Positions 614 to 46,151 of a stretch of DNA of 46,166 nucleotides are shown piece after piece. The position numbers were made by a program, and so were the translations under genes. Position 1 is the first letter of the stretch. The number at the start of each line of letters is the position of its first letter. The stretch comes from a phage: assembly GCA_017760785.1 (NCBI GenBank), contig GCA_017760785.1_4320.1. One strand, written 5' to 3'. Under the pieces are notes generated by a model. It was not told where the DNA came from, searched no databases, and was given only the letters and a program-made list of their open reading frames with translations.

Positions 614-2608
614 ATGTTGCCTATCGAGAAGCTGGTTGCAAACTTCGATAAAGAAAGAATCAAACAGATTCAGAAAGATTATCAGTTTGGTGAGATAACT
701 CCTTACGAATTCCAGTGCGTAACATTTGATGCAATCGGAAAGGCTATTGGGAAGTATGAGTCTCCATTTATCGCTGACCTTTCCGTATCGGCTGGTAAGA
801 CAATCATTCTTGCTATGATAGGAAAGCGCATGGAGCAGCTTGGTCTTCCTTATATGGTTTTATCTCGCCAGTCAGAGATAATCAGCCAGAACTCAGAAGA
901 GCTTCGAAACTTCGGCATCCGTAATAGCGTCTATTGCGCTGGCCTTAACGTTAAATCAGTTTACTATCCAACCATAGTGGCTAGCGAAGGTACGGCAGCC
1001 AACGGCTTATTTAAGGGGCTTGGTGACTATGTTCCGGCGGTTATCGCTATCGATGAATGTCACATGGTGGATCACATGGATATCGTGGAAGCCGAAGAGA
1101 ATGAAGAAACATTTGAGCAAATGAGCACAAAGAAAGGTGAGATGGTATTTAAGGATGGCATAAATACCGGATTGCTTGGCACTGGTCGTGCGCAGTATAC
1201 GCTAATCATTACTGAAATGAAACGCCGTTGTCGTGAGAAGTACGGTCGCGAGCTTAGGATTTTTGGACTAACTGGAAGCCCGTATCGTAACAACGATCAC
1301 ATAGTGGTTAGCAATCCAAATGTTCGTGGATTCTGGCGCAAAACTGTAATACAAGTACCAACCAATTACCTGGTTGATTTGGGATTCGTGGTACCAACTG
1401 TTTACGGTGAAGTTGGCGATTTGGGTTACGACCTTAGCGAATTTGCGCCAGACGGTAGTGATGGTGTTAAAGACTTCAGCAAGAAAGAAATGGATGCGAT
1501 GCAGGAAAAAATTCATCAAAACCAGTCCATGACTCAAAAGATTATACAGTTCGCAGCCAAGTTTATGGAAACTCGTAACGCAGCACTAGTAACTTGCTCA
1601 GGCAAGCGGCATTGCGAGGAAGCAGCCGCGTCGCTTCCTGAGGGTGTAACCTGGGCTATAGTAACTGACTCTACTGGTGAGAAAAAGCGTCGTGAGATTC
1701 TTTCTGACGCAGCTGAAGGTAAGTATAAATTCATCTTTCAGATTGGTTGCCTCACAACCGGCGTGAACGTTCCGCCATGGGACACGTCAATAATTCTTCG
1801 CAAGGTTGGTAGCATCACGTTACTGATTCAGCTTTTGGGGCGAGGTATGCGAATTCTTAAGAAGAAGCATAAGGAAATGGGAATGGTTAAGGATGATCAC
1901 GTGGTGCTGGACTTCGCTGGTACTCTTGATGACATTGCGGAATTGTACTTTGACCCAATCATAGAGGAAGTGCAGGACCAGAAATTTAAGTCTTCACGCA
2001 AAGGCGGCGATAAGCCAAGAATATGTCAGGCCTGTAGTTACGAGAACTCTCCTTTTGCTCGTCGTTGCAATAACGTAATTGACGGGAAGCGTTGTGAGCA
2101 TTTTTTTACATTTCGCTTATGTGAAGATATAGAGGACCCGCAGACAAAAGTTACTATTAAGAAGGGTTGTGGTGAAAAGAATGATATCGCCGCTAAAAAC
2201 TGCCGATGCTGCGGAGAGATGCTTATTGACCCCAACGCTAATCTGACTGGAAAGATGTATCGCCGTGGTGATTACCTTCGCGTTTATGACTTCCAGATTG
2301 GATTGAGTAAGAATCAAACCGGAATTGTTGTTAAGTACAATATCATGGCTCATAACGGAGAGCGGTTTAATGCTTGGGAGTTCTTTAACCCCGAGTCTGA
2401 CCATCGAGTTTGTGGCGTGCTGTGGAAAAACTTTTGCCTTGCTCATATTGAGAATCGCACAGAGGCAGCACGGATTGGTAGGCTGAAAAATGCCAGGATG
2501 ATTATGACTAACGTAGATAAGTTCCGTGCTCCTGTTCAGGTTACTCATCGCAGGAATGGCAAAGGAAAGGACGTGATCGCGTTTAAGAATTTTGGAGAAT
2601 TATTATGA
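614..2608 (+). CDS. SF2 DNA helicase with C-terminal Cys-rich zinc-ribbon region
   Basis: Walker A SAGKT, DECH box, several CxxC pairs near C-terminus; 664 aa. Confidence 0.8.
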   Translation: MLPIEKLVANFDKERIKQIQKDYQFGEITPYEFQCVTFDAIGKAIGKYESPFIADLSVSAGKTIILAMIGKRMEQLGLPYMVLSRQSEIISQNSEELRNFGIRNSVYCAGLNVKSVYYPTIVASEGTAANGLFKGLGDYVPAVIAIDECHMVDHMDIVEAEENEETFEQMSTKKGEMVFKDGINTGLLGTGRAQYTLIITEMKRRCREKYGRELRIFGLTGSPYRNNDHIVVSNPNVRGFWRKTVIQVPTNYLVDLGFVVPTVYGEVGDLGYDLSEFAPDGSDGVKDFSKKEMDAMQEKIHQNQSMTQKIIQFAAKFMETRNAALVTCSGKRHCEEAAASLPEGVTWAIVTDSTGEKKRREILSDAAEGKYKFIFQIGCLTTGVNVPPWDTSIILRKVGSITLLIQLLGRGMRILKKKHKEMGMVKDDHVVLDFAGTLDDIAELYFDPIIEEVQDQKFKSSRKGGDKPRICQACSYENSPFARRCNNVIDGKRCEHFFTFRLCEDIEDPQTKVTIKKGCGEKNDIAAKNCRCCGEMLIDPNANLTGKMYRRGDYLRVYDFQIGLSKNQTGIVVKYNIMAHNGERFNAWEFFNPESDHRVCGVLWKNFCLAHIENRTEAARIGRLKNARMIMTNVDKFRAPVQVTHRRNGKGKDVIAFKNFGELL

Positions 2609-3024
2609 AAATTACAGATAAAGAAGATTACATTGAGTTTTACCCTGGGCCAGTAAAGTCTTGCCCGAAAGAGGATGAAGAACAAATCTTTTGCTCTGAT
2701 TGGGTTAAGTATAACTACCCAGATATGGTATTTTTCCACTGCGTGAATGAGGGAAAGAAAACCATTGGTCAAGCAAGAAAAGACCAGGCTAAGGGTCTTC
2801 TCAAGGGCGTATCAGACTGCGTATTTATGATTCCAGAGAAATACCGTGGCAACTACTCATTTGGAGCCATAGAGCTAAAGAGGGCTGGGAAAACACAGGC
2901 CATCCCAGTTAGTGATGAACAGAAGTCCTTCCTCAAAAGCGTAAGAGAATCAGGTGGCTTCGCCGCAGTGGCCTACGGGCGGGAGGGTTTTTTATCTGCG
3001 TTTAAAGAAATGATTTCAAAATAG
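2605..3024 (+). CDS. VRR-NUC-like PD-(D/E)xK nuclease
   Basis: ATGA overlap with helicase stop; D...ELK motif; 139 aa. Confidence 0.55.
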   Translation: MKITDKEDYIEFYPGPVKSCPKEDEEQIFCSDWVKYNYPDMVFFHCVNEGKKTIGQARKDQAKGLLKGVSDCVFMIPEKYRGNYSFGAIELKRAGKTQAIPVSDEQKSFLKSVRESGGFAAVAYGREGFLSAFKEMISK

Positions 3025-3064
3025 CACTAATTGCTAAAGACGTTTCGGTGAGTTGGTGTATTAT
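3022..3064 (+). promoter_or_regulatory. motif-type promoter (TAGCACTAATTGCTA, 22 bp, TATTAT)
   Basis: palindrome plus spaced -10; CATCGAAACGA leader follows. Confidence 0.55.
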
Positions 3065-3102
3065 CTATTCATCGAAACGAAACGCACAAAGAGAGAAAGA
3101 AA

Positions 3103-3297
3103 ATGGCTACTATCTTTACTGGTAAAATCTACGAATCACGCAAAACTGGTTATGAATATGAATTAGCAATCACCGCTGAGGGTTATGTTCTTGACGATGG
3201 TGAAGGTTATGCATTCGAAGTTAGCCCAACATACAAAGACGACCTGGAAACTGTTAAAAACGCATATGGTGAAAAATTTGATGAGGTATCGGAATAA
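3103..3297 (+). CDS. hypothetical small protein
   Basis: ORF preceded by TAGCAC motif promoter and purine-rich SD. Confidence 0.5.
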   Translation: MATIFTGKIYESRKTGYEYELAITAEGYVLDDGEGYAFEVSPTYKDDLETVKNAYGEKFDEVSE

Positions 3298-3521
3298 TGG
3301 CAATTTTTACATTTGAAAATCAATGGGAAGTTTTCCAGACGATGGTTGTTGAGGAGCTCAGCAAAGCTAAGTATAACAAGGGGGATGCGTGGTATTTGGC
3401 TGCATCACTTGATATGAGTTTCGAGGAAGACTACCTGAACACCGATATTGAAACATGGCGTGACCGTATGGTTGCTGATATCGAAGAAATGAAGAAAGAT
3501 TGCCCGGAGGATTTCTTATGA
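3297..3521 (+). CDS. hypothetical small protein
   Basis: ORF; start overlaps previous stop. Confidence 0.45.
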   Translation: MAIFTFENQWEVFQTMVVEELSKAKYNKGDAWYLAASLDMSFEEDYLNTDIETWRDRMVADIEEMKKDCPEDFL

Positions 3522-3706
3522 TTGGCATCTGCGTAGAAACAAATGGCCACTTTACACTGCTTGAGGATTACGAAATTAATTTCGATTCATACTCAATAAC
3601 ATTGCTAAGCGACTTCGGGTGTTATTGGTTCATTTATGATCAAGGTGATGGTTACTACGGTTGCGTAGATGCAAACGGAAAAGAAGTTAGTTTTTTGGTT
3701 GAATAG
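3518..3706 (+). CDS. hypothetical small protein
   Basis: ATGA overlap with previous stop; ends in TAG of next motif. Confidence 0.4.
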   Translation: MIGICVETNGHFTLLEDYEINFDSYSITLLSDFGCYWFIYDQGDGYYGCVDANGKEVSFLVE

Positions 3707-3748
3707 CACCCTTATTTGTCATTGGTGCAGCATGTAAATTTATATAAT
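3704..3748 (+). promoter_or_regulatory. variant motif promoter (TAGCAC half-site, TATAAT)
   Basis: half motif plus -10 before 3763 ORF. Confidence 0.4.
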
Positions 3749-3762
3749 TAGGAGTATACAAC

Positions 3763-3891
3763 ATGAATAAGGCAAAAATTATCGCTGATATGCTTAAGAT
3801 TGCCGACCGTCTGAATAAAATCGTTGCGGAGATGGAGATCAGAAAGCAAGACATGATCACCAAATCCAAACGACAAACCTCCACTCTTTGA
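3763..3891 (+). CDS. hypothetical 42-aa protein
   Basis: hand-translated ORF below track cutoff; own motif promoter and AGGAG SD. Confidence 0.4.
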   Translation: MNKAKIIADMLKIADRLNKIVAEMEIRKQDMITKSKRQTSTL

Positions 3892-3896
3892 ATAGA

Positions 3897-3939
3897 TAGC
3901 ACTTTTTGTTAAAACTAAAATCCACGGATGGATTATATT
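3897..3939 (+). promoter_or_regulatory. motif-type promoter (TAGCACTTTTTGTTAA, TATATT)
   Basis: motif plus -10 at standard spacing. Confidence 0.5.
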
Positions 3940-3971
3940 AAACACATCAGCAACGAAGAGGATTTTGAATA

Positions 3972-4097
3972 ATGAAAATTGTAGACAAAGAGATTTTCGA
4001 GATTGCGAAGATTTATGCAAAACAAGCAGTTAGGGATAATGACAATTATTGCTGGATGTTCGCTAAAGAATACCTGAAAATGGCTTACGGATTATGA
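3972..4097 (+). CDS. hypothetical 41-aa protein
   Basis: hand-translated ORF below track cutoff; motif promoter at 3897. Confidence 0.4.
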   Translation: MKIVDKEIFEIAKIYAKQAVRDNDNYCWMFAKEYLKMAYGL

Positions 4098-4342
4098 TAG
4101 TTGAAACCGGACGCGCCGCTGTATGGGCGCATTGTGGAGAGGCTGGCTTGCAAGATGACATTAAGCATATATCCAGCTTCTTTTACATAAAAGACATTAG
4201 TGTCGTGTTCAATGGCAAATTCTCTTACATGAATGAGCGCCCAAGAAAATACGTAAGAGTTAAGCCAGGTGTTAGAATTGATGTTAACGAGTTCCTTAAA
4301 TCTGAGGGATTCAAGTTTAAGATAACGAAGCCCAAGGGTTGA
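4094..4342 (+). CDS. hypothetical small protein
   Basis: ORF; start overlaps previous stop. Confidence 0.4.
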   Translation: MIVETGRAAVWAHCGEAGLQDDIKHISSFFYIKDISVVFNGKFSYMNERPRKYVRVKPGVRIDVNEFLKSEGFKFKITKPKG

Positions 4343-4344
4343 TC

Positions 4345-4491
4345 ATGAAGCCGCACGAATATTCAGCGTTAGTTAATGGGTTGCTTGAGGTTGCTATAAA
4401 ATTCAAGGATACGCAGCAGTTAAGAGAGCAGCTATCACGAGAATTTTCAAGGCATGGTATTAGACCGAACCATAAGATGAAAAAGGATTGA
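4345..4491 (+). CDS. hypothetical 48-aa protein
   Basis: hand-translated ORF between track ORFs. Confidence 0.35.
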   Translation: MKPHEYSALVNGLLEVAIKFKDTQQLREQLSREFSRHGIRPNHKMKKD

Positions 4492-4493
4492 GT

Positions 4494-4745
4494 ATGTTGG
4501 GTTTAGATTTTCAGCCAGAGCATTACGATTTAGTGCATGGGCAAAGTGGTGCGAAGTTTAGAGCGATACCTATTACTGATTGGTTCCCTCCGGACTATGT
4601 GGACGTGAACGCAAAAACTAAAGAATGTAAGTTGGTCCAGATTTATTATTCTCCAGCGTGTGGAAACCTTTGCATGACTGACCTTGAACAGAAGCTAACA
4701 ATTAGTGCTGATTTGATTGACTACTGGTTAAAAGAAGTTGAATGA
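4494..4745 (+). CDS. hypothetical small protein
   Basis: ORF; first ATG at 4494 (track start 4488 is TTG). Confidence 0.45.
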   Translation: MLGLDFQPEHYDLVHGQSGAKFRAIPITDWFPPDYVDVNAKTKECKLVQIYYSPACGNLCMTDLEQKLTISADLIDYWLKEVE

Positions 4746-4828: not shown

Positions 4829-5959
4829 ATGGCAACTGCAAAGATTAGCAACGGACAACTACGCGAAGAACTGGCAAATGGCATGACCAACAAGGCAATC
4901 GCAGAGAAGTACGGAATGAACATTCGCAACGTTGAATTGCGTCGCAGTAAATTGGCTAAGAGTGGAGAGTTGCACGGGAACCCAGGTATCAAGAAGTTAG
5001 TTCCTGACGGTTATTTGGTCAAAGGTACGTCAACCATGATTGATGCTGATGGAAACGAGAAGATTCGCTGGGTTAAGACCTCAATTGATAATGAGCGACT
5101 TGAGGTTTTAATGGAGCAAGCTCGAGAAGCATTCTGTTCTGAGTTGCCAAAAGCAGATGTAGTCACCCACTCAGGTAATGAAGTTAACTCAGAACTAATG
5201 ACTCTTTATCCGATTTTCGATATTCATATCGGTATGATGGCACATCGTCATGAGTCTGGTGAGAATTATGACACGAACACCGCAGAGGAATTAATGGCAT
5301 CATATTTTGACCATTCAATTTCTGTATCTCCAGCCTCAGGGAAAGCCGTGATTTTAGTTGGTGGCGACTTCCTTCACTCTGATGGACTGGAAGCGGTAAC
5401 TCCATCAAGTGGTCACTGCCTTGATCAAGATAGTCGATATGCTAAGTTAGTTTATGTGGCAATTCGCTCAATTCGCGGCGCTGTAGAGAAGATGCTTAAG
5501 AAGCACAGGGAGGTCGAGATTCAAATCATAGAGGGGAACCATGACCAAAGTGGCATGATTTGGCTTCGCGCAGCAATGGCTGCATTTTATGAAAACGAGA
5601 GTCGCGTGCTTGTTGATACCAGTCCGGCAATCATGCATAAAACACGATTTGGCTCAACATTGCTTGGTTACACTCATGGCCACACCATGAAGAAAGCCGA
5701 TGGTCGACTTGCAGCAATGGCAACTGACTACCGAAAAGACTTTGGTGAATGTGAATTTGTTTACTGCCACTCCGGCCATTTCCATCATGCCACTGTTACA
5801 GAGTGCACTCTCGGGATTGATGAGGTTCATCCAGCCCTGGCTAGTAAGGACGCATATGCGGCGCGTGGAGGGTGGCGTTCATATCGACAAGCGGCTGCAA
5901 TTGTTTACCACAAGAACTTTGGCGAGGTTGGTCGACACATTTATCGACCTGGCATGTAA
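4829..5959 (+). CDS. calcineurin-like metallophosphoesterase with N-terminal HTH-like region
   Basis: motifs DIHIG, GGDFLHSDG, GNHD, GHxH; 376 aa. Confidence 0.65.
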   Translation: MATAKISNGQLREELANGMTNKAIAEKYGMNIRNVELRRSKLAKSGELHGNPGIKKLVPDGYLVKGTSTMIDADGNEKIRWVKTSIDNERLEVLMEQAREAFCSELPKADVVTHSGNEVNSELMTLYPIFDIHIGMMAHRHESGENYDTNTAEELMASYFDHSISVSPASGKAVILVGGDFLHSDGLEAVTPSSGHCLDQDSRYAKLVYVAIRSIRGAVEKMLKKHREVEIQIIEGNHDQSGMIWLRAAMAAFYENESRVLVDTSPAIMHKTRFGSTLLGYTHGHTMKKADGRLAAMATDYRKDFGECEFVYCHSGHFHHATVTECTLGIDEVHPALASKDAYAARGGWRSYRQAAAIVYHKNFGEVGRHIYRPGM

Positions 5960-5960
5960 A

Positions 5961-5976
5961 TAGCACCTTTTGTTAA
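5961..5976 (+). promoter_or_regulatory. motif copy TAGCACCTTTTGTTAA, -10 unclear
   Basis: motif after stop of 4829-5959; hairpin downstream. Confidence 0.35.
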
Positions 5977-6032
5977 TAAAGCCTCAAAGGATTGAGGCAA
6001 AATAAATAAACATTAACGAGATGAGATTTTAA

Positions 6033-6506
6033 ATGATTTACGTATTTGATATCGATGGAACAATAGCTAATAATGAGCATAGAAGTCACCTTCTACCATC
6101 TAGTAACCTTCACCTGACTTCAAGTTGGAGCAATTACAACAGGGCCTGCTGGGGTGATTCCCCAATAATTCCAATGATAAACATGATGAATACGTTAGCC
6201 GACTTATCGCCAGTTTACATCATTACCTCAAGAAGTGACGAAGTTGAATGGATGACGCTTGAGTGGCTTCAGGATAATGATATTGAGTATGATTCTATAT
6301 ACATGAGAAGTCGACATGACAACAGAAAAGATTACAAAATGAAAGAGGAATGGCTTAATGAAATCAGTGGTGGCGATAAAAGCAATGTGGTTATTTTTGA
6401 AGATAACCCACAAGTAATTAAGCACCTAAGAAGTTGCGGATACACCGTTATGGCTGTATGTGAATATGAAAAACTACCTAAAGATTGCGAATCTCACGGA
6501 GAATGA
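6033..6506 (+). CDS. HAD-family phosphatase
   Basis: N-terminal FDIDGT motif; 157 aa. Confidence 0.6.
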   Translation: MIYVFDIDGTIANNEHRSHLLPSSNLHLTSSWSNYNRACWGDSPIIPMINMMNTLADLSPVYIITSRSDEVEWMTLEWLQDNDIEYDSIYMRSRHDNRKDYKMKEEWLNEISGGDKSNVVIFEDNPQVIKHLRSCGYTVMAVCEYEKLPKDCESHGE

Positions 6507-7063
6507 AAATGACTAAATTATTTATACTTAATGGCCCAGCTGGAGTTGGTAAGGACACTATAGCGGATATCATGGTTGAGACCGGTGTAGCCAAAGAAAA
6601 GGTATCATTCAAGTCACCAATGTTTAACGTTGCAAAAGGAATGCTATCAAGCGATGAATTTGATGGATTCATCAAGAATTACGACAATAGAGACTATAAG
6701 GAATCACCTCATGGATTTCTTGTCGGTATGACAGTTCGTGAATTTATGATTTGGATTAGCGAGTCTGTAATGAAGCCAGTCTTTGGTGATGATGTTTTCG
6801 GTAAAAGGCTAGCCCAGTCACTTGGTGATGGTTGCTACATTTGCGCTGACGGTGGATTTGCTAGCGAGATTAAGCCACTGATCGACTCTGGTGTTGAGGT
6901 CACGTTAATCAGATTGCATAGGTCAGAGTACACATTTGATGGCGATAGTCGCTCATACATTCACGGTGTGTGCGCAAGAGAAATTGATGTTCGTGTTATT
7001 AGTGGTGATATTGATGGAACATCAGCATTGGTAAGGCACGTAATAAATAGCACTAATTGCTAA
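6503..7063 (+). CDS. P-loop nucleotide/polynucleotide kinase-like protein
   Basis: Walker A GPAGVGKDT; ATGA overlap with phosphatase stop. Confidence 0.55.
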   Translation: MKMTKLFILNGPAGVGKDTIADIMVETGVAKEKVSFKSPMFNVAKGMLSSDEFDGFIKNYDNRDYKESPHGFLVGMTVREFMIWISESVMKPVFGDDVFGKRLAQSLGDGCYICADGGFASEIKPLIDSGVEVTLIRLHRSEYTFDGDSRSYIHGVCAREIDVRVISGDIDGTSALVRHVINSTNC

Positions 7064-7121: not shown

Positions 7122-7295
7122 ATGACTAAATTATACTGCGTTAAAAACAACTACAAGACGCTGCCATTTACCGTTAACCATCCTTACAATGCGGAGTACC
7201 AGGGTGATGGATATTACAAGATTTACGGCGACGATATGACGCACATCTTAGCGCCAATTGATGGTTCTTTGGTTGAATTTATTATCGCAGACTAG
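7122..7295 (+). CDS. hypothetical 57-aa protein
   Basis: hand-translated ORF; motif promoter upstream, terminator downstream. Confidence 0.45.
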   Translation: MTKLYCVKNNYKTLPFTVNHPYNAEYQGDGYYKIYGDDMTHILAPIDGSLVEFIIAD

Positions 7296-7318: not shown

Positions 7319-7347
7319 AGCGGGGGGCCTTTTGGCCCCCCTTTTTA
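7319..7347 (+). terminator. rho-independent terminator
   Basis: GGGGGGCC/GGCCCCCC stem, TTTT loop, T-run. Confidence 0.7.
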
Positions 7348-7413: not shown

Positions 7414-7641
7414 ATGGAGGATCACATGAGGGAAGTAATCAATGCTGCTACGGCGTCAACTGGAGGGGCAGCGGTAACTGGTGCGGCAACTGGTCAGATG
7501 ACCATAGCGATAATCAGCCTTATCGCTTTAATCATTTTTGGTGCCTGGGGCGCTTACTGGAAGTTCAAAGATAGCCAGGCGATTCGAAGAGCGCTTGAAT
7601 CGGGAGACTTGAAAACAGCAATCAATATAAGGAGCAAATAA
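7414..7641 (+). CDS. holin, pinholin-like, possible dual start
   Basis: two Met three codons apart (7414, 7426); weak Gly/Ala-rich TMD1 plus hydrophobic TMD2; directly precedes endolysin. Confidence 0.6.
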   Translation: MEDHMREVINAATASTGGAAVTGAATGQMTIAIISLIALIIFGAWGAYWKFKDSQAIRRALESGDLKTAINIRSK

Positions 7642-8127
7642 ATGAAGCAGAAGCTGCTAATTAGCGCGGCTACGGCTGCGGCAATATACATCGCAGCTCC
7701 GCTTATTGAGCTCGTTGAGGGTGTGGAGAACAAGCCTTACATGGACATTGCCGGAATCCCTACAGTTTGTTCCGGTATTACCGGTCCAGATGTGGTCTGG
7801 GGTAAAACGTACAGCAACAGGGAATGCCGGAACCTGCTGGAGAAGCACATCAAGATTCATGCTAAGTATGTTCAGGATGCTGTAACCTACCCAATTGCAC
7901 CGCAGACAAGGGCGGCGTTAATCAGCTTTAGCTACAATGTTGGTGGTTCAGCGATGAGGAAATCAACTGCCGTTAAGTTAATTAACCAGGGTAAGATTGA
8001 GCGGGGTTGCAAGGCTCTCGGTATGTGGACAAAGGCTACAGTTAATGGCAGGAAGGTTGTCGTTAAGGGTTTAGTAAATCGCAGGAATGAGGAGATTAAG
8101 TTATGTTTAAGCGGATTGCAGCGTTAG
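7642..8127 (+). CDS. SAR endolysin, T4-lysozyme family
   Basis: N-terminal Ala/Gly-rich signal-anchor; catalytic E-x8-D-x5-T spacing. Confidence 0.75.
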   Translation: MKQKLLISAATAAAIYIAAPLIELVEGVENKPYMDIAGIPTVCSGITGPDVVWGKTYSNRECRNLLEKHIKIHAKYVQDAVTYPIAPQTRAALISFSYNVGGSAMRKSTAVKLINQGKIERGCKALGMWTKATVNGRKVVVKGLVNRRNEEIKLCLSGLQR

Positions 8128-8492
8128 TAATGTGCGTAGCTTTGTCTGGATGCTCAGCAACATCCGCACTGACCGGATTAATTGGCAGTAAGCCAGAGGT
8201 TAGCGCCCAGGCTGGCGCCGAGAACAATAAGGTTGGTGTTGGGTTAACGAACAAGTTTGACTCCAGCAACTCCAGTGAAGCCACGGTTAAAGATTCTAAG
8301 GTTGGGTCACTGGATAGCTCGAGCGGAAAAAAGACTGCTGACAACTCGATTAAGGCCTCAAGAATCACTGCCGAAAAGATTGAAATTACCAATAACGAAT
8401 CATCCGCGCTTCCGTGGGTTGGAACGGGAGCTATGGGGTTGCTGGTTTTAATTCTCATGGCATTAATCTTAAGACGTAAAAAAGCCTCCTAA
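8103..8492 (+). CDS. unimolecular spanin-like lipoprotein
   Basis: N-terminal lipobox LSGC plus C-terminal TMD and basic tail; overlaps endolysin end. Confidence 0.6.
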   Translation: MFKRIAALVMCVALSGCSATSALTGLIGSKPEVSAQAGAENNKVGVGLTNKFDSSNSSEATVKDSKVGSLDSSSGKKTADNSIKASRITAEKIEITNNESSALPWVGTGAMGLLVLILMALILRRKKAS

Positions 8493-8510
8493 TGGAGGCT
8501 ATATTTTTAG
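8480..8510. terminator. bidirectional terminator between spanin and minus-strand block
   Basis: AGCCTCC-TAAT-GGAGGCT with A-run before and T-run after. Confidence 0.65.
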
Positions 8511-8845: not shown

Positions 8846-10429
8846 TCACCCCAGCAATCGTGGATTAATGTAAACCTTATCACCAATCAGGCACGTATAG
8901 TTTTTCTCATCAAGCATTGGCAGTAAGTGATCTTTAATCTTCGTCATTACTCCAGCTTGGGCCTCGAATGGCTTAACTTTACGAGCAGCTTCATATAATG
9001 AACGAATGCCAACTACTCCCTTCCCATTTTTTCCTTGCTTGATCAGAATATCAATCAGCTTATTCATCTCGGCATTGTCTCCAGCGTGACCGGCGGCGTT
9101 AGCGGATGACAAATAAGTCTTACTCAGTTCCTGGAACATAATTACAGCTTCTTGCATGGTGTCGAGCTCAATCTCTCTGGATTTCTGTGGGCTCCCACCG
9201 TTATGGTTGAACCAGTTACGAACAGTATGAAGTACCGCCGCAATCCTGATGGCCTGCTTATCGAACTTACCCAGAGCGCCGCGCAACATTGTGTGTGAAT
9301 ACTTACCTCCGTCAGCAAGGTGCGGTTCCATTTCCTGGCGTGCTCTGTTGAGGTATTTCATTGCTGAGCTGCTGACTGTCAACTTTACTTCTTGCTCATT
9401 CATTATCTCATGAACTAATCGGAAGTAATCAGCCTTCAGCCCTCCGTCGATAGGCTCGTAAGTTGAATCTCCATTCTCGTCAACGAATACACGCTCGCCC
9501 AGGAATGACTTTTCACGTACAAGCAGGAAACGTTCCGATACACCGATACCTCGCGCACCAGCATTCATGATCGCATTGATTGTCTCATCCTGCGCAATTA
9601 CAGATATACAGCCCATGGCAACGAAACTCATGTTGTTTTCAGCGTTGGCGCGCGCGATAGATACGTTACCCGCATCCCATGCCTTGAGCACGAGCTCGCT
9701 GTTGGTCTTCTTCGAGCCGTCACCGTAAGTCATTCCCAATAGTGAGTTGACGCTCGTTGCCTCATCCGAGATAACCGCAAAGTTGCCCTGGCGGTTGTTT
9801 ATTCGCGCAAGACCTTCAGGTGTGGTATCTGACACTGGAAATACGATATCGCAAAGTTTCTCTAGCTTTTCCTCAAGTTCCTCTTTCTCCTCGAATAGGG
9901 AGGCCATCTCTGACGGAGATTTTTCCTGCTTCATCTCTTTGGATAATGCAGATAGCTTAGCCATAATCTTTTTTCGCTCACGCTTTCGCACTTCATTCAG
10001 CCGCTCAGTCTCGGCAATCATTGGAGCAATGGAGAGTGAGTTAATTGCTGATTTACCAGTCGATGGTGGCTGACTGGTCACGACGTACAAAGAGGTTGGC
10101 TGCTGGGTCCCGTGATACTCAACAGTAAAGCGGCCCAGCATTGCAGCGGAAACACACCCCAGGAAGTGCATGTATGCGGATGACTCAGGAAACTGAACTG
10201 AACGAGCAATGTTGGCTGACAGTTTTCCAACAACATCAATATCATTGCCGAGTGAGATTACAGGATATTTGTCATTTGCAGCATCAATCTCTACTGGCGC
10301 TTTCCAGAATGATTGAGACTGACGATAGCCATTAGCATTAATAGCGACGCGCAAAGGTGGGAGGTTGTCTGCGGAAGCGATTGCCATAACCTGTTCAATA
10401 GATAGTTTATCTTCGTTGAAATCGAACAT
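8846..10429 (-). CDS. P-loop NTPase, DUF3987-like (assignment uncertain)
   Basis: Walker A-like PPSTGKS; GGAGA SD before ATG 10429; own motif promoter; 527 aa. Confidence 0.6.
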   Translation of the reverse strand: MFDFNEDKLSIEQVMAIASADNLPPLRVAINANGYRQSQSFWKAPVEIDAANDKYPVISLGNDIDVVGKLSANIARSVQFPESSAYMHFLGCVSAAMLGRFTVEYHGTQQPTSLYVVTSQPPSTGKSAINSLSIAPMIAETERLNEVRKRERKKIMAKLSALSKEMKQEKSPSEMASLFEEKEELEEKLEKLCDIVFPVSDTTPEGLARINNRQGNFAVISDEATSVNSLLGMTYGDGSKKTNSELVLKAWDAGNVSIARANAENNMSFVAMGCISVIAQDETINAIMNAGARGIGVSERFLLVREKSFLGERVFVDENGDSTYEPIDGGLKADYFRLVHEIMNEQEVKLTVSSSAMKYLNRARQEMEPHLADGGKYSHTMLRGALGKFDKQAIRIAAVLHTVRNWFNHNGGSPQKSREIELDTMQEAVIMFQELSKTYLSSANAAGHAGDNAEMNKLIDILIKQGKNGKGVVGIRSLYEAARKVKPFEAQAGVMTKIKDHLLPMLDEKNYTCLIGDKVYINPRLLG

Positions 10430-17330: not shown

Positions 17331-17408
17331 GCTCCGCTAGCTCAATGGGATAGCAGCAACGACCTTCTAAGTCGTAGGTTGCTGGTTCGAATCCAGTGCG
17401 GAGCGCCA
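17331..17408 (+). tRNA. tRNA-Arg (anticodon TCT)
   Basis: acceptor stem GCTCCGC/GCGGAGC, anticodon stem ACGAC/GTCGT with loop CTTCTAA, T-loop TTCGAAT, 3' GCCA; D-arm atypical. Confidence 0.7.
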
Positions 17409-30740: not shown

Positions 30741-31229
30741 ATGAACTGGAATGATATTTTTGATTATAGAGATGGCGTTCTTTATTGGAAGATAAAGCCA
30801 GGAAAGAACATGCTGCTTGGATCGAGGGCCGGAACAATTAGAAAGAATGGTTATCTTTCTGTTGGTTTTGACAGAAGTGAATTTTACATTCACAGGATAG
30901 TTTGGGAGATGCATAATGGCTCAATACCAGATCTAATGCAGATAGATCATATAGACCAGATAAGGACAAACAATAAGATTGAAAACTTGAGACTTGTAAC
31001 TAGCGCAGAAAATAACAGAAATCAAACAATGCAGTATAATAACACTAGCGGATACACTGGAGTTACATGGAGGAAGGATAGATGCAAATGGTCTGCAAGA
31101 ATCGAGTTTGAAGGCAAGGTTAGATATCTTGGTAACTTTTCAAAATTCGATGAAGCAGTGGCAGCAAGAAAATTAGCAGAGGATATGTTTGGATTTCACG
31201 AAAATCATGGCAAGAGGAAAATAAAATGA
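30741..31229 (+). CDS. HNH homing endonuclease with AP2-like domain
   Basis: N-terminal YWKIK, HID motif, C-terminal GYTGV...W AP2-like; own promoter. Confidence 0.75.
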   Translation: MNWNDIFDYRDGVLYWKIKPGKNMLLGSRAGTIRKNGYLSVGFDRSEFYIHRIVWEMHNGSIPDLMQIDHIDQIRTNNKIENLRLVTSAENNRNQTMQYNNTSGYTGVTWRKDRCKWSARIEFEGKVRYLGNFSKFDEAVAARKLAEDMFGFHENHGKRKIK

Positions 31230-32436: not shown

Positions 32437-32919
32437 ATGAATTGTCATGATTACTTTAGGTATGAAGATGGTAAAATCTACTGGAAGATAAAACCAAAAA
32501 GAAAGCCTTTCCTTTTTGGTTGCGAAGCTGGTAGCGGTAATCCTGGTGAGTATAAGACCGTTAAGATTGATGGATACAGATACAGGTGTCACAGGGTAAT
32601 ATATGAGATGTTTAATGGCAGTATTAAAGATGGCATGGTTATTGATCACATAAATGGCCTGAAAGATGACAATCGAATTGAAAATCTAAGATGTGTAACT
32701 GTCTCAATTAACGCAAAGAATCAAAAAGTTAATGCTAAAAACAATTCTGGAATTAATGGTGTAAGACTTTACAAGAGGACTGGTAAGTGGATTGCTTACA
32801 GCAAGTCTTTCGGTAAGTGCGTTCATCTTGGATATTTTTATTCTATTGAATCCGCAATTGACGCGAGGGACTTATATAATTCAACAAATGGTTTCACAGA
32901 GAGGCATGGGAAATGTTAA
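32437..32919 (+). CDS. HNH homing endonuclease with AP2-like domain
   Basis: paralogue of 30741-31229; own promoter. Confidence 0.75.
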   Translation: MNCHDYFRYEDGKIYWKIKPKRKPFLFGCEAGSGNPGEYKTVKIDGYRYRCHRVIYEMFNGSIKDGMVIDHINGLKDDNRIENLRCVTVSINAKNQKVNAKNNSGINGVRLYKRTGKWIAYSKSFGKCVHLGYFYSIESAIDARDLYNSTNGFTERHGKC

Positions 32920-38960: not shown

Positions 38961-39003
38961 ATAGTACCGCATCCTTGCGGATTGTCTTTAGCAAACCGTG
39001 CTA
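38961..39003 (-). promoter_or_regulatory. motif-type promoter (TAGCACGGTTTGCTAA, 21 bp, TACTAT)
   Basis: minus strand; CCATCGAAACGAAAAA leader before Cor-like gene. Confidence 0.5.
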
Positions 39004-39677
39004 TTCGCAATAAATACAGCTCTTGCAAATCCACGAGGTGTAAGGCTGCGAATTACCTTTGTTTTCTTGCTCTTGCCTCCCAGCTTCTTGTATTGTTCAG
39101 AGAATCCATCGTCAACGACCACATTGATCGCCTCAGGCCAATTAAAGCCATTACCTGACCAGATGCATGTCTTCTTAGGATATGCGTCGCGAGGCTTTAT
39201 TAGGTCGCTAAAAAACGGGTGTAAATCATCTTCAGGCAAGTATCCACCAAACTCGTAAGGGTGGAGTGTATTGTCAGGTTTTCGCCAAAGAGATGAAAGC
39301 ACGCTAATTGGGTTCTCAATCATATAAGGTACGCCGTACTTCTCAGCCAGGTTAAAAGCAACCTTGCAAGTCTCTGCCGCCTCAATTTGAAAATTAGGAT
39401 TGGCCAGGCGCTTGCGATCAAAGTGTCTTGACCCACTCACGGCTAAATCAGTGCATGGGGGGAATGCCATGATAAAATCAGGCTTCACATCAAAATAAAA
39501 ATTGGCATCTATCCATGCGTTAACGTAGGTGATGTTCTCATGCTCAAATTTTGCATTTAAGTCACCATAGCTCCCGTGGTCAGACTCATCAAAGTTGAAG
39601 CAGTAGCAAGTATGTCCGGCTTCAGCCCAATCCTTTACAGCCAGACCAGAACCATCAAATAAAGACCAGATAACCAT
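38988..39677 (-). CDS. compact DNA C5-cytosine methyltransferase-like protein
   Basis: FDGSG, FPPCT, ENP motifs at C5-MTase-like spacing; ATG 39677 (alternative TTG 39710 lies inside the -10). Confidence 0.5.
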   Translation of the reverse strand: MVIWSLFDGSGLAVKDWAEAGHTCYCFNFDESDHGSYGDLNAKFEHENITYVNAWIDANFYFDVKPDFIMAFPPCTDLAVSGSRHFDRKRLANPNFQIEAAETCKVAFNLAEKYGVPYMIENPISVLSSLWRKPDNTLHPYEFGGYLPEDDLHPFFSDLIKPRDAYPKKTCIWSGNGFNWPEAINVVVDDGFSEQYKKLGGKSKKTKVIRSLTPRGFARAVFIANSTVC

Positions 39678-39711
39678 TTTTAAATCCTCTATCGTTGCTT
39701 GTGTGACCAAC

Positions 39712-41548: not shown

Positions 41549-42013
41549 ATGAACAAAGATTGCTGGCAGACTCCTTTAGAGTTATTCAAACAACTAGATG
41601 ATAAATACAACTTCGAGGTTGACGTATGCGCCAGCCAAGAAAACGCGCTTTGTGAATGTTTTTGGGCTGTAGATGATGACTGCCTGCAACAGGATTGGGG
41701 AGAAGGCAAAGGTTTTGTCTGGTGTAATCCACCATATAGCAATCCATTGCCATTTGTCGAAAAGTGCCAACAATACGGCTATGCAGTCATGCTGTTGAAT
41801 CAGGACACATCAACAAAATGGGCCAAGATAGTATTTGAAAAAGCGTCAAATGTTATACTTTTATCAGACAGGGTTAGGTTTATAAATCCAGTAACACTGG
41901 AGGTTGGTAAGTCAAATCCTAAATGCCAGATGATTGTGGTTTTCGACAAGAGTAGTAATTCTGGTGTTGATATAAGATGGTGCCCAATAAAAGAAATTCA
42001 TAAGCACATCTAA
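41549..42013 (+). CDS. dam: DNA N6-adenine methyltransferase (Dam-like)
   Basis: NPPY motif and N-terminal WQTP; 154 aa. Confidence 0.8.
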   Translation: MNKDCWQTPLELFKQLDDKYNFEVDVCASQENALCECFWAVDDDCLQQDWGEGKGFVWCNPPYSNPLPFVEKCQQYGYAVMLLNQDTSTKWAKIVFEKASNVILLSDRVRFINPVTLEVGKSNPKCQMIVVFDKSSNSGVDIRWCPIKEIHKHI

Positions 42014-44752: not shown

Positions 44753-45675
44753 TAGTTTAGCAAGTCTTTGGCTTTGTACACTTTCTTGCGTATTCCTGTT
44801 TTAAATGACTTCCCGTCATTAGGTATCACCACATCAACATTGCGATCATCAGCGGCAATAAGTATATCAGTATCACAATAACGGCAAGCAACCCTAAACT
44901 TCCTAGACTTGTCTCTGTGCATAACCATTTCCATATTGTAACAGGAGAAAGCCACAAACACCTCGCGACCGCCAGTAGCCAGATGAATACGTACGCCATC
45001 AATAAAATTATCAACAACATAAGTGTAACCATCAACCTGCCTAGAGCCAATGACAGCAACAGAATCACGAGTGTAATCACCAGCAAGGAACTTAACATTT
45101 GAATCTCCATCAATAAACATTAAGTTGCAGAAATCATCACCAAGCCCATCCTCGTAAACCATCGAGCACGGTACGGCATGAATCATTGAGCCATCCTTAG
45201 CTATGCCAACATCGAATCCATCATCAAGATAAATACCCTCGTATGTTGTGAGTGGGCTTGATTCAACTCTCTCGGTACGCTGCATGACCTCAAGCACTTT
45301 TTCATGATCTACCTGGGCGCCCATTTTGTAACGCTGAGTTCTTGATGCCTGCTTGTTTGCCTTAACTATAACCTCAATTGGTGTTAAGTTCAGCCAGTCA
45401 CCAAGCAAATTTACTGAATCGGCGAAGGACAATCCAGTGCACTTCATGACCCATCCTATACCGGAGTCACTTCCGCATTTCGAACAAACTGCCGCGCCAT
45501 TTCCTTTTTCACTGCCTATTTCGTCGGTAAACCTGAATCTGTCAGTGCCAAAGCAGTATGGGCATGGTCCGTGCTTCTTACTTAGGTGTCTATCATTCCA
45601 ACCAAGTTCCTTTGCATAAAATGATTTCCACAATCCGGCCATCTTAGGTATAACTTCATTCTTATCGTAATTCAT
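44752..45675 (-). CDS. DNA primase-like protein with zinc-binding motif
   Basis: CPYC...CSKC zinc-ribbon-like motif followed by acidic core; 307 aa. Confidence 0.55.
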   Translation of the reverse strand: MNYDKNEVIPKMAGLWKSFYAKELGWNDRHLSKKHGPCPYCFGTDRFRFTDEIGSEKGNGAAVCSKCGSDSGIGWVMKCTGLSFADSVNLLGDWLNLTPIEVIVKANKQASRTQRYKMGAQVDHEKVLEVMQRTERVESSPLTTYEGIYLDDGFDVGIAKDGSMIHAVPCSMVYEDGLGDDFCNLMFIDGDSNVKFLAGDYTRDSVAVIGSRQVDGYTYVVDNFIDGVRIHLATGGREVFVAFSCYNMEMVMHRDKSRKFRVACRYCDTDILIAADDRNVDVVIPNDGKSFKTGIRKKVYKAKDLLN

Positions 45676-46151
45676 TTGCTTAACCCGTGATTTTCGTGAA
45701 AGTTGTATTTTCTCTCTGCTTCAATTCTTACTTTATACGCCTGCTCTGGAGTATCGAAGTTCCCAAGGTGTAGCTGCTTACCGTCAACCTTGATGTGAGC
45801 CTTAAATTTTCCGTGATTTAGCTTTGTCACTCCACAATAACCAGTTGTTGATAAAACGCTAAGCTTGCAATTTCTTGAGTTACCTTGATTTGTTGTTACT
45901 CTTAGGTTTTCTATTCTGTTATCTAATTTGTTATGGTTTATATGATCAATGTAGTCGCCATTTTGAAGTTCTCCATTAAACATCTCCCACACAACTCTAT
46001 GTACATAAGTCCTAAAGCCATTAACAGACACTTTGTAATAGCCAGATGTAGATAGTGAGTTGCACTCATCGCCAACCTTAACACGTCTTGCAGTGCTAAT
46101 CTTCCAATGCAATTTGCCATCTACATAGTAAAAATAATCATGCCAGTTCAT
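45672..46151 (-). CDS. HNH homing endonuclease with AP2-like domain
   Basis: third paralogue (YWKI, HINH, GYCGV motifs); overlaps primase start. Confidence 0.7.
   Translation of the reverse strand: MNWHDYFYYVDGKLHWKISTARRVKVGDECNSLSTSGYYKVSVNGFRTYVHRVVWEMFNGELQNGDYIDHINHNKLDNRIENLRVTTNQGNSRNCKLSVLSTTGYCGVTKLNHGKFKAHIKVDGKQLHLGNFDTPEQAYKVRIEAERKYNFHENHGLSK

What the first reader, a model, noticed from the sequence alone, without database searches (positions are those of the whole stretch)
4829..7063. Cluster of three phosphoryl-transfer enzymes in the early region
Three consecutive genes encode a calcineurin-like metallophosphoesterase with an N-terminal extension (4829-5959), a HAD phosphatase (6033-6506) and a P-loop kinase (6503-7063); the last two are translationally coupled (ATGA overlap). 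Phosphatase plus kinase resembles a split polynucleotide kinase/phosphatase end-healing enzyme, but no ligase is visible in the window. Alternatives are nucleotide-pool remodelling or degradation of host signalling nucleotides.
Basis: inference. Interest (0 to 1): 0.45.

Follow-up and report, generated by a model that had tools for sequence, protein, structure and literature searches.

The report
Phage nuclease, 3'-phosphatase, dNMP-kinase gene cassette
Three neighbouring genes of a T1-like coliphage encode a DNA-nuclease-type metallophosphoesterase, a T4-Pnkp-type 3'-phosphatase and a T4-gp1-type nucleotide kinase; this is a conserved and already annotated cassette that most likely recycles DNA into precursors for phage replication, so it is largely ordinary, though no experimental test of it turned up in my searches.

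Summary

The phosphatase lies upstream of the kinase, on the same strand, in 13 of 16 dereplicated kinase lineages. The contiguous trio also occurs as an overlapping operon in the unrelated Kagunavirus K1G. A 2026 Drexlerviridae paper already describes "DNA repair exonuclease - PNK - dNMP kinase".

Most likely function (confidence about 0.5): DNA-to-dNDP salvage in phages that have no DNA polymerase gene and no other nucleotide-synthesis genes. I rate it a new member of a known kind, interest 0.3.

The parts
4829..5959 (+). Gene 1: HTH-MPE protein, 376 aa. GenBank relatives call it 'DNA repair exonuclease', 'phosphoesterase' or 'hypothetical'.
4850..4960 (+). N-terminal helix-turn-helix (residues 8-44) of gene 1, GerE/LuxR or sigma-70 region 4 type.
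   Evidence: Three helices in the AF2 model. Weak GerE hits in Pfam (E = 0.054) and in the PDB profile search (1fse, E = 0.083). PF08281 is precomputed on homologue P0116.
5186..5956 (+). Metallophosphoesterase catalytic domain (residues about 120-376). Metal and catalytic residues: D131, H133, D180, N237, H238, H283, H317, H319.
   Evidence: These columns are invariant or nearly invariant in 48 homologues of 29-58% identity. MPE fold matches.
5981..5998 (.). Intergenic inverted repeat GCCTCAA-AGGA-TTGAGGC between gene 1 and gene 2. There is no T-run on the + strand.
   Evidence: Sequence. The scan flags it as terminator-like on the minus strand only.
6033..6506 (+). Gene 2: stand-alone HAD 3'-phosphatase of the T4 Pnkp type, 157 aa. 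It has no kinase part, although databases call it 'polynucleotide kinase'.
   Evidence: PF25109, 57.3 bits. phrog_415, E = 1.9e-51. Profile hits to 4xrp (9e-23), 5uj0 and 1ltq. D6, D8, R17, R67, D100, K104 and D124 are invariant.
6498..6501 (+). GGAG Shine-Dalgarno for gene 3, inside the end of gene 2.
   Evidence: Sequence. It is 7 nt from ATG 6509 and 1 nt from ATG 6503.
6509..7063 (+). Gene 3: P-loop kinase of the T4 gp1 dNMP-kinase family, 184 aa. The alternative start 6503 would give 186 aa and the ATGA overlap.
   Evidence: phrog_139, E = 5.1e-41. T4 gp1 hits the same PHROG. AF2 pLDDT 90.9. Foldseek top hit 1dek. Homologues are mostly 184 aa.
7322..7341 (+). Terminator-like G+C hairpin followed by a T-run. 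It probably ends the transcription unit that carries the cassette.
   Evidence: 8 G-C pairs followed by TTTTT.

Best explanation
The cluster is a DNA-turnover and nucleotide-salvage cassette. It sits in a phage that has no DNA polymerase gene and, apart from these genes, no annotated nucleotide-metabolism genes.

- Gene 1 is a DNA-directed nuclease: an MPE of the DP1/Mre11 type carrying its own HTH. It breaks DNA down (host chromosome, or replication and recombination intermediates) to 5'-dNMPs.
- Gene 2 is a Pnkp-type HAD 3'-phosphatase. It removes 3'-phosphates from DNA ends or nucleotides. Such phosphates would otherwise block 3'-5' exonucleolysis and priming.
- Gene 3 is a gp1-type kinase that converts the released dNMPs to dNDPs. 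Host NDP kinase then makes dNTPs for replication by the host polymerase.

Shown here: gene existence, family and fold assignments, conservation of catalytic residues, a conserved phosphatase-then-kinase order with tight coupling, and recurrence of the contiguous trio in two unrelated phage lineages. Inferred: every substrate, and the idea that the three enzymes act in one pathway.
For: Kinase:
- It is in the same PHROG as T4 gp1.
- Its top PDB fold match is 1dek, TM 0.62.
- hhalign to gp1 extends 73 columns, beyond the P-loop and through the Y-D-x-R motif. Against T4 PNK it aligns only 24 P-loop columns.

Phosphatase:
- It is homologous over the full domain to the T4 Pnkp phosphatase. D165, D167, R176, R213, D254, K258 and D278 are conserved, and D277 is replaced by E.

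MPE:
- All metal-binding motifs are conserved.
- The nearest folds are DNA exo- and endonucleases.
- It has an HTH domain.

Synteny:
- The phosphatase lies upstream of the kinase on the same strand in 69 of 80 kinase loci, or 13 of 16 clusters at 70% identity.
- The trio is contiguous in 40 of 79 phosphatase loci.
- The same trio is an overlapping operon in Kagunavirus K1G, inserted antiparallel within the tail-gene module.

Genome and literature context:
- No ligase, DNA polymerase, RNR or ThyA is annotated in the close relative PCEc3.
- T1 and TLS are reported to degrade host DNA and reuse the nucleotides, and the responsible genes are not identified (PMC11447400).
- The authors of PMC13164509 read the PNK and dNMP-kinase genes as nucleotide supply.
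- From my own knowledge: T4 uses gp46/47 (Mre11/Rad50-like) together with gp1 for the same flow.
Confidence: 0.5

Rival explanations
1. Nucleic-acid end healing. The phosphatase removes 3'-phosphates and the kinase phosphorylates 5'-OH ends of broken tRNA or DNA. The kinase would be a non-orthologous replacement of the PNK kinase domain. A host ligase (RtcB or LigA) then seals the break, countering anticodon nucleases or other nucleases that leave 3'-P and 5'-OH ends. The MPE could open 2',3'-cyclic phosphates, as the MPE domain of Clostridium thermocellum Pnkp does (from my own knowledge).
For: The phosphatase is unambiguously Pnkp-type and keeps the catalytic residues. The phosphatase-then-kinase order is conserved and tightly coupled in many lineages. 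A phosphatase partnered with a kinase is the PNKP logic. The window carries a tRNA-Arg(TCT) gene, a weak hint that tRNA supply matters to this phage.
Against: The kinase belongs to the gp1 dNMP-kinase family, whose characterised member T4 gp1 phosphorylates the phosphate of a dNMP. It has only P-loop similarity to T4 PNK. No ligase is found in the window or in close relatives. From my own knowledge, E. coli RtcB joins 3'-P or 2',3'-cyclic-P ends to 5'-OH ends without any healing step.
Confidence: 0.15
2. Counter-defence by editing nucleotide pools or signals. The phosphatase and/or kinase would remove mononucleotide danger signals made during genome degradation (for example m6dAMP, which the Metis and PUA-Cal-HAD systems sense), or would rebuild dNTP pools depleted by defence enzymes. 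The MPE might degrade signalling nucleotides.
Against: There is no direct evidence. PADLOC models give no hits. The MPE carries a DNA-binding HTH and is closest to nucleases. It is a persistent core gene of the Drexlerviridae (508 of 522 genomes; PMC13164509), which is unlike typical anti-defence genes. The phosphatase's nearest characterised relatives act on 3'-phosphates, not on 5'-dNMPs.
Confidence: 0.15
3. There is no three-gene pathway. The MPE is a replication or recombination nuclease (a stand-alone DP1-like or Mre11-like enzyme). The phosphatase-kinase pair is a separate accessory unit that merely landed in the permissive intergenic slot downstream of it.
For: The same slot holds homing endonucleases or the SH3-like gene in other phages (PMC13164509). 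The MPE occurs without the pair in Dhillonvirus-like Psq-1 and in Jerseyvirus. The pair occurs without a nearby MPE in 27 of 79 phosphatase loci.
Against: The contiguous trio recurs in two unrelated lineages. In K1G all three genes overlap start to stop. It is contiguous in 40 of 79 phosphatase loci.
Confidence: 0.15

Closest known systems
Drexlerviridae 'DNA repair exonuclease - PNK - dNMP kinase' locus, as annotated in GenBank and described in PMC13164509 (KanT1 paper, 2026)
   Same: Same genes, same order, and same position upstream of the holin-endolysin-spanin cassette. About 90% nucleotide identity to SU57, MSK and PCEc3.
   Different: The window also keeps the SH3-like DUF7244 gene between the kinase and the holin. 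That paper reports this combination in only seven instances. No experimental characterisation of the locus turned up in my literature searches.
T4 polynucleotide kinase/phosphatase (Pnkp, PseT; PDB 1ltq)
   Same: Gene 2 is homologous to the C-terminal HAD 3'-phosphatase domain over its full length and keeps the catalytic residues. A kinase gene is its immediate partner.
   Different: Two separate genes in the reverse order (phosphatase first). The kinase is not PNK-type. There is no RNA ligase partner.
T4 gp1 deoxynucleoside monophosphate kinase (PDB 1dek)
   Same: Same PHROG family, best fold match, and shared GKDT P-loop and Y-D-x-R motif.
   Different: Only 16% identity. The window protein has 184 aa against 241 and lacks the gp1 insertion. 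Its substrate range is unknown.
Nuclease-type metallophosphoesterases: archaeal PolD DP1, Mre11/SbcD, Pseudomonas putida MPE (PdeM)
   Same: Same fold and metal-binding motifs, including an Mre11-like G-D-x-x-H motif II. Weak sequence hits to PdeM and SbcD.
   Different: No Rad50/SbcC or DP2 partner is encoded. It has its own N-terminal HTH. Identity is 11-18%, and Pfam Metallophos models do not detect it.
Mycobacteriophage cluster A metallophosphoesterase Gp48 (PMC12287305)
   Same: A phage MPE expressed early that damages host genomic DNA, which is a functional precedent.
   Different: I did not test homology to the window protein. Gp48 has not been reported with a phosphatase or kinase partner.

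Membership tests
Calcineurin-like metallophosphoesterase superfamily | Motifs DxH, GD, GNH(D/E), H and GHxH that bind the two metal ions | tested here: met
   D131, H133, G179, D180, N237, H238, H283, G316 and H319 are invariant and H317 is nearly invariant in 48 homologues.
Calcineurin-like metallophosphoesterase superfamily | Beta-sandwich MPE fold | tested here: met
Calcineurin-like metallophosphoesterase superfamily | Detection by the Pfam Metallophos models | tested here: not met
   No Pfam MPE family is reported even at E <= 1. The protein is a divergent branch that sequence models miss.
Mre11/SbcD nuclease | Rad50/SbcC ATPase partner encoded alongside | tested here: not met
   No SMC-like or long coiled-coil ORF in the window. 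The largest ORFs are the tail protein, the tape measure protein and helicases.
Mre11/SbcD nuclease | DNA nuclease activity | not testable with these tools
   Inferred only, from fold ranking and the HTH domain.
HAD superfamily | Motif I DxDxT, motif II S/T, motif III K, motif IV acidic pair | tested here: met
   D6-I-D8-G-T10, T65/S66, K104, E123-D124.
T4 Pnkp 3'-phosphatase domain (PF25109) | Score above the Pfam gathering threshold, and full-length alignment with the essential residues D165, D167, R176, R213, D254 and D278 (list recalled from the T4 mutational literature, not re-read here) | tested here: met
   57.3 bits against a cut-off of 27.6. 1ltq E = 2.5e-17 over residues 162-301. The equivalent residues D6, D8, R17, R67, D100 and D124 are invariant.
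Bifunctional polynucleotide kinase/phosphatase (PNKP) | PNK-type 5'-kinase domain, fused or as a partner | tested here: not met
   Gene 2 has no kinase part. Gene 3 matches phrog_139, whereas T4 Pnkp matches phrog_505, 415 and 2071. Alignment to the T4 PNK kinase domain covers the P-loop only. No chain described as a polynucleotide kinase is among the top 50 fold hits.
RNA repair system (Pnkp + ligase) | RNA or DNA ligase encoded in the same genome | tested here: not met
   No ligase is annotated in the 90%-identical relatives, and none is found among the 10 ORFs scanned from the window-specific segments.
T4 gp1-type dNMP kinase | P-loop GxxxxGKDT, family-level homology and NMP-kinase fold | tested here: met
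   Walker A motif GPAGVGKDT. phrog_139 E = 5e-41, with T4 gp1 at 1.8e-65 in the same PHROG. Foldseek top hit 1dek.
T4 gp1-type dNMP kinase | Phosphorylation of dNMPs | not testable with these tools
   Needs an enzyme assay.

The most novel reading that the evidence does not exclude
The phosphatase-kinase pair, with or without the HTH-MPE nuclease, could be a mobile cassette that manages the mononucleotides released when the phage degrades DNA. It would feed replication and at the same time erase the "genome is being degraded" signal (for example m6dAMP) that defences such as Metis and PUA-Cal-HAD sense. Alternatively, the gp1-like kinase could have been recruited as a non-orthologous polynucleotide 5'-kinase, making the pair a new split PNKP.
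Probability: 0.12. Interest if true: 0.65.

Novelty: new member of a known kind. Interest (0 to 1): 0.3.

Why it matters
T1-like phages are reported to rebuild their DNA from the degraded host chromosome, yet the genes responsible have not been identified (PMC11447400). This cassette is the obvious candidate, and it is easy to test genetically.

The analysis also corrects a widespread database label. The gene annotated "polynucleotide kinase" in this locus, and in the related phage loci I examined, has no kinase domain. It is a phosphatase that is almost always paired with a gp1-type kinase.

If the pair turned out to act on nucleic-acid ends, or on danger-signal nucleotides, it would be a new counter-defence route. 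As a salvage pathway it is expected biology.

Tried and rejected
- Pfam gave nothing useful for gene 1 or gene 3.
- NCBIfam gave only sub-threshold hits: PdeM, an SbcD-related family and guanylate kinase.
- Single-sequence PDB searches found nothing for genes 1 and 3. Profile PDB searches for them gave only P-loop or HTH noise.
- PADLOC gave no hits.
- Rfam found only the tRNA.
- The search for related loci with the MPE alignment failed because no stretch of the alignment was conserved enough.
- Several papers were checked and were not relevant to these genes: retron Eco2, the phage Tn-seq preprint, NARP3, and a CRISPRi-ART plus Drexlerviridae search that returned nothing.
- Minus-strand ORFs inside the region are 41-74 aa long. 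I did not examine them further and treated them as incidental.
- I considered and rejected membership of the Mre11-Rad50 type (no partner gene) and of the bifunctional PNKP family (the kinase is of the wrong family).
- I considered that the ATGA overlap marks the true kinase start. The Shine-Dalgarno spacing and the homologue lengths favour 6509.
Full report
**Context.** The window is essentially a whole T1-like siphovirus genome. The 2.2 kb region matches six phage records end to end at 89-91% nucleotide identity: PCEc3, PsgS01F, OzMSK, Msk, SU57 and FP. SU57 is classified in Drexlerviridae, subfamily Braunvirinae. Upstream on the same strand lie a helicase (614-2608), a VRR-NUC nuclease (2605-3024) and a run of small ORFs. 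Downstream lie a DUF7244 SH3-like gene (7122-7295), a strong terminator-like hairpin (7322-7341), then holin, endolysin and u-spanin genes.

**Observation.** They are real genes: the PHROG E-values are 1.4e-148, 1.9e-51 and 5.1e-41, and homologues are abundant.
- One detail needs correcting. The ATGA at 6503-6506 exists, but the GGAG at 6498-6501 is 1 nt from ATG 6503 and 7 nt from ATG 6509.
- Most homologues are 184 aa and start at the equivalent of 6509.
- The SU57 and PCEc3 annotations leave a 2-nt gap between the two genes.
- Coupling is tight with either start.

**Gene 1 (4829-5959).** Pfam does not detect a metallophosphoesterase (MPE) domain here; its only hit is a weak GerE match at residues 14-41.
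- An exhaustive HMMER search found 4667 cluster representatives at E <= 0.001.
- In an alignment of 48 of them (29-58% identity), D131, H133, G179, D180, N237, H238, H283, G316 and H319 are invariant and H317 is nearly so. This is the full MPE metal-binding signature, and motif II has the Mre11-like form G-D-x-x-H.
- The AF2 model (pLDDT 90.8) shows three N-terminal helices (8-44), a beta-hairpin (62-86), a helix (88-103) and the MPE core (120-376).
- Viral structure matches are numerous, and several are auto-named "DNA polymerase II small subunit".
- The protein occurs in 2017 phage records: Drexlerviridae, Guernseyvirinae, Dhillonvirus-like phages, and Vibrio and Rhodobacter phages.
- It is a persistent core gene in 508 of 522 Drexlerviridae genomes (PMC13164509).
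- No Rad50/SbcC-like partner is encoded.
- I conclude that it is a stand-alone MPE with an HTH domain, most likely a DNA nuclease. The fold ranking is suggestive, not decisive.

**Gene 2 (6033-6506).** It passes Pfam PF25109 (HAD_PNKP) at 57.3 bits against a cut-off of 27.6.
- A 14-sequence profile hits Pnkp1 (4xrp, 9e-23) and the T4 Pnkp phosphatase domain (5uj0 at 3.4e-18, 1ltq at 2.5e-17) over the whole domain.
- Reading the printed alignment, T4 D165, D167, R176, S211, R213, D254, K258 and D278 correspond to D6, D8, R17, T65, R67, D100, K104 and D124. All of these except T65 are invariant in the family. T4 D277 corresponds to E123.
- That these T4 residues are essential is my recollection of the T4 mutational literature; I did not re-read it here.
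- The protein has no kinase part, so the database label "polynucleotide kinase" is a misnomer. It is a phosphatase-only protein (phrog_415, to which the T4 phosphatase half also matches).

**Gene 3 (6509-7063).** Pfam and PDB sequence searches see only the P-loop.
- PHROG 139, "deoxynucleoside monophosphate kinase", matches at 5.1e-41 over profile positions 80-240.
- The T4 gp1 sequence I used is 100% identical to 1dek_A. It hits the same PHROG at 1.8e-65 over positions 83-261. T4 Pnkp instead hits PHROGs 505, 415 and 2071.
- The AF2 model (pLDDT 90.9) has 1dek as its best Foldseek PDB match (E = 1.1e-5, TM 0.62). Adenylate, gluconate, shikimate and phosphomevalonate kinases follow. No chain described as a polynucleotide kinase appears in the top 50.
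- hhalign against gp1 aligns 73 columns, running through the Y-D-x-R motif (probability 76%). Against the T4 PNK kinase domain it aligns only 24 P-loop columns.
- The kinase is therefore gp1-type, not PNK-type.

**Synteny.** I searched the open reading frames of the fetched IMG/VR loci with HMMs of the three proteins.
- Among 80 kinase loci (41-88% identity), 69 have the phosphatase upstream on the same strand within 5 kb, and 22 have the contiguous MPE-phosphatase-kinase trio.
- After single-linkage clustering of the kinases at 70% identity there are 16 clusters. Four have the trio, three have an adjacent pair without a nearby MPE, six have the pair separated by other genes, and three have the kinase alone.
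- Among 79 phosphatase loci, 40 carry the contiguous trio, 27 have the kinase within about 3 kb downstream with no MPE nearby, and 9 have neither a kinase nor an MPE nearby. The remaining three have an adjacent kinase with the MPE more distant or absent.
- These loci are redundant, because many come from a single metagenome. The cluster counts are the safer figures.
- In Kagunavirus K1G (Guernseyvirinae, a lineage unrelated to Drexlerviridae), ORF20, ORF19 and ORF18 are the same trio. Their stops and starts overlap, and the operon sits antiparallel between a tail-protein gene and genes adjoining the tape measure gene.
- The link to the MPE is not obligatory. In AugustePiccard, and by sequence motifs in Jerseyvirus dunkel, a homing endonuclease follows the MPE. 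In Psq-1 the MPE stands without either partner, beside the lysis genes.

**Mechanism.** The close relative PCEc3 has no annotated ligase, DNA polymerase, RNR or thymidylate synthase. The parts of the window that PCEc3 does not cover encode HNH endonucleases, two DNA methyltransferases, a tail fibre and proteins of unknown function, and no ligase. T1 and TLS are reported to degrade host DNA and reuse its nucleotides, and the responsible genes are unknown (PMC11447400).
- The most economical reading is a DNA-to-dNDP salvage line: the nuclease produces 5'-dNMPs, the gp1-type kinase produces dNDPs, and the Pnkp-type phosphatase clears 3'-phosphate blocks. This parallels T4 gp46/47 plus gp1 (from my own knowledge). 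It also agrees with the "nucleotide supply" reading in PMC13164509. I give it 0.5.
- The phosphatase step is the weakest link in that reading.
- Rivals, at about 0.15 each: end healing with a non-orthologous kinase; counter-defence through pool or signal editing (Metis and PUA-Cal-HAD sense m6dAMP released during genome degradation); and no real three-gene pathway, with the pair sitting in an insertion hot spot.

**Comparison and verdict.** Each protein is a member of a known family. The locus is annotated in GenBank, and its arrangement was described in 2026 (PMC13164509). No experimental characterisation turned up in my searches. Three points go beyond the annotation:
- the "PNK" gene in this locus is a phosphatase only;
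- its conserved partner is a gp1-type kinase;
- the trio travels as a cassette in two unrelated lineages.

I rate it a new member of a known kind, interest 0.3.

Noticed in passing
window 7122-7295 (+): A 57-aa DUF7244 SH3-like protein (Pfam E = 4.9e-28) lies between the kinase and the holin. PMC13164509 reports that the SH3 gene and the two kinase-annotated genes (PNK and dNMP kinase) occur together in only seven instances, so this window shows the rarer combined arrangement.
   Followed up: partly
window 7414-8492 (+): Lysis cassette directly downstream: a holin-like 75-aa ORF, a phage lysozyme (PF00959, E = 1.4e-34) and an overlapping u-spanin-like ORF. A bidirectional terminator-like hairpin sits at 8483-8500.
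   Followed up: partly
window 17331-17408 (+): A single tRNA-Arg (anticodon TCT), found by both ARAGORN and Rfam. The relative PCEc3 is annotated with tRNA-Arg and tRNA-Ile.
   Followed up: no
window 30741-31229 (+), 32437-32919 (+), 45672-46151 (-): Three paralogous HNH homing endonucleases (phrog_99, E = 1e-51 to 1e-65) lie in segments absent from the 90%-identical relative PCEc3. Two of them interrupt the tail-gene region.
   Followed up: partly
window 38988-39710 (-), 41549-42013 (+): Two DNA methyltransferase genes (phrog_757, E = 8.5e-84; phrog_111, E = 8.3e-54) lie in window-specific segments. They may be relevant if methylated mononucleotides matter for defence sensing.
   Followed up: no
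window 5981-5998: A perfect 7-bp inverted repeat with a 4-nt loop lies in the 73-nt spacer between the MPE and phosphatase genes. There is no T-run on the coding strand, so it may be an mRNA processing or stability element rather than a terminator.
   Followed up: no
L083 (Escherichia phage K1G, GU196277.1) 2389-4555: The same MPE-phosphatase-kinase trio forms an overlapping three-gene operon. It is inserted antiparallel between a tail-protein gene and genes adjoining the tape measure gene in a Kagunavirus. In the related Jerseyvirus dunkel (L164), a protein with HNH-endonuclease motifs follows the MPE instead.
   Followed up: partly
window 8846-10429 (-): A 527-aa DUF3987 protein (E = 1.6e-41), annotated as a helicase in relatives, is transcribed convergently towards the lysis cassette.
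   Followed up: no
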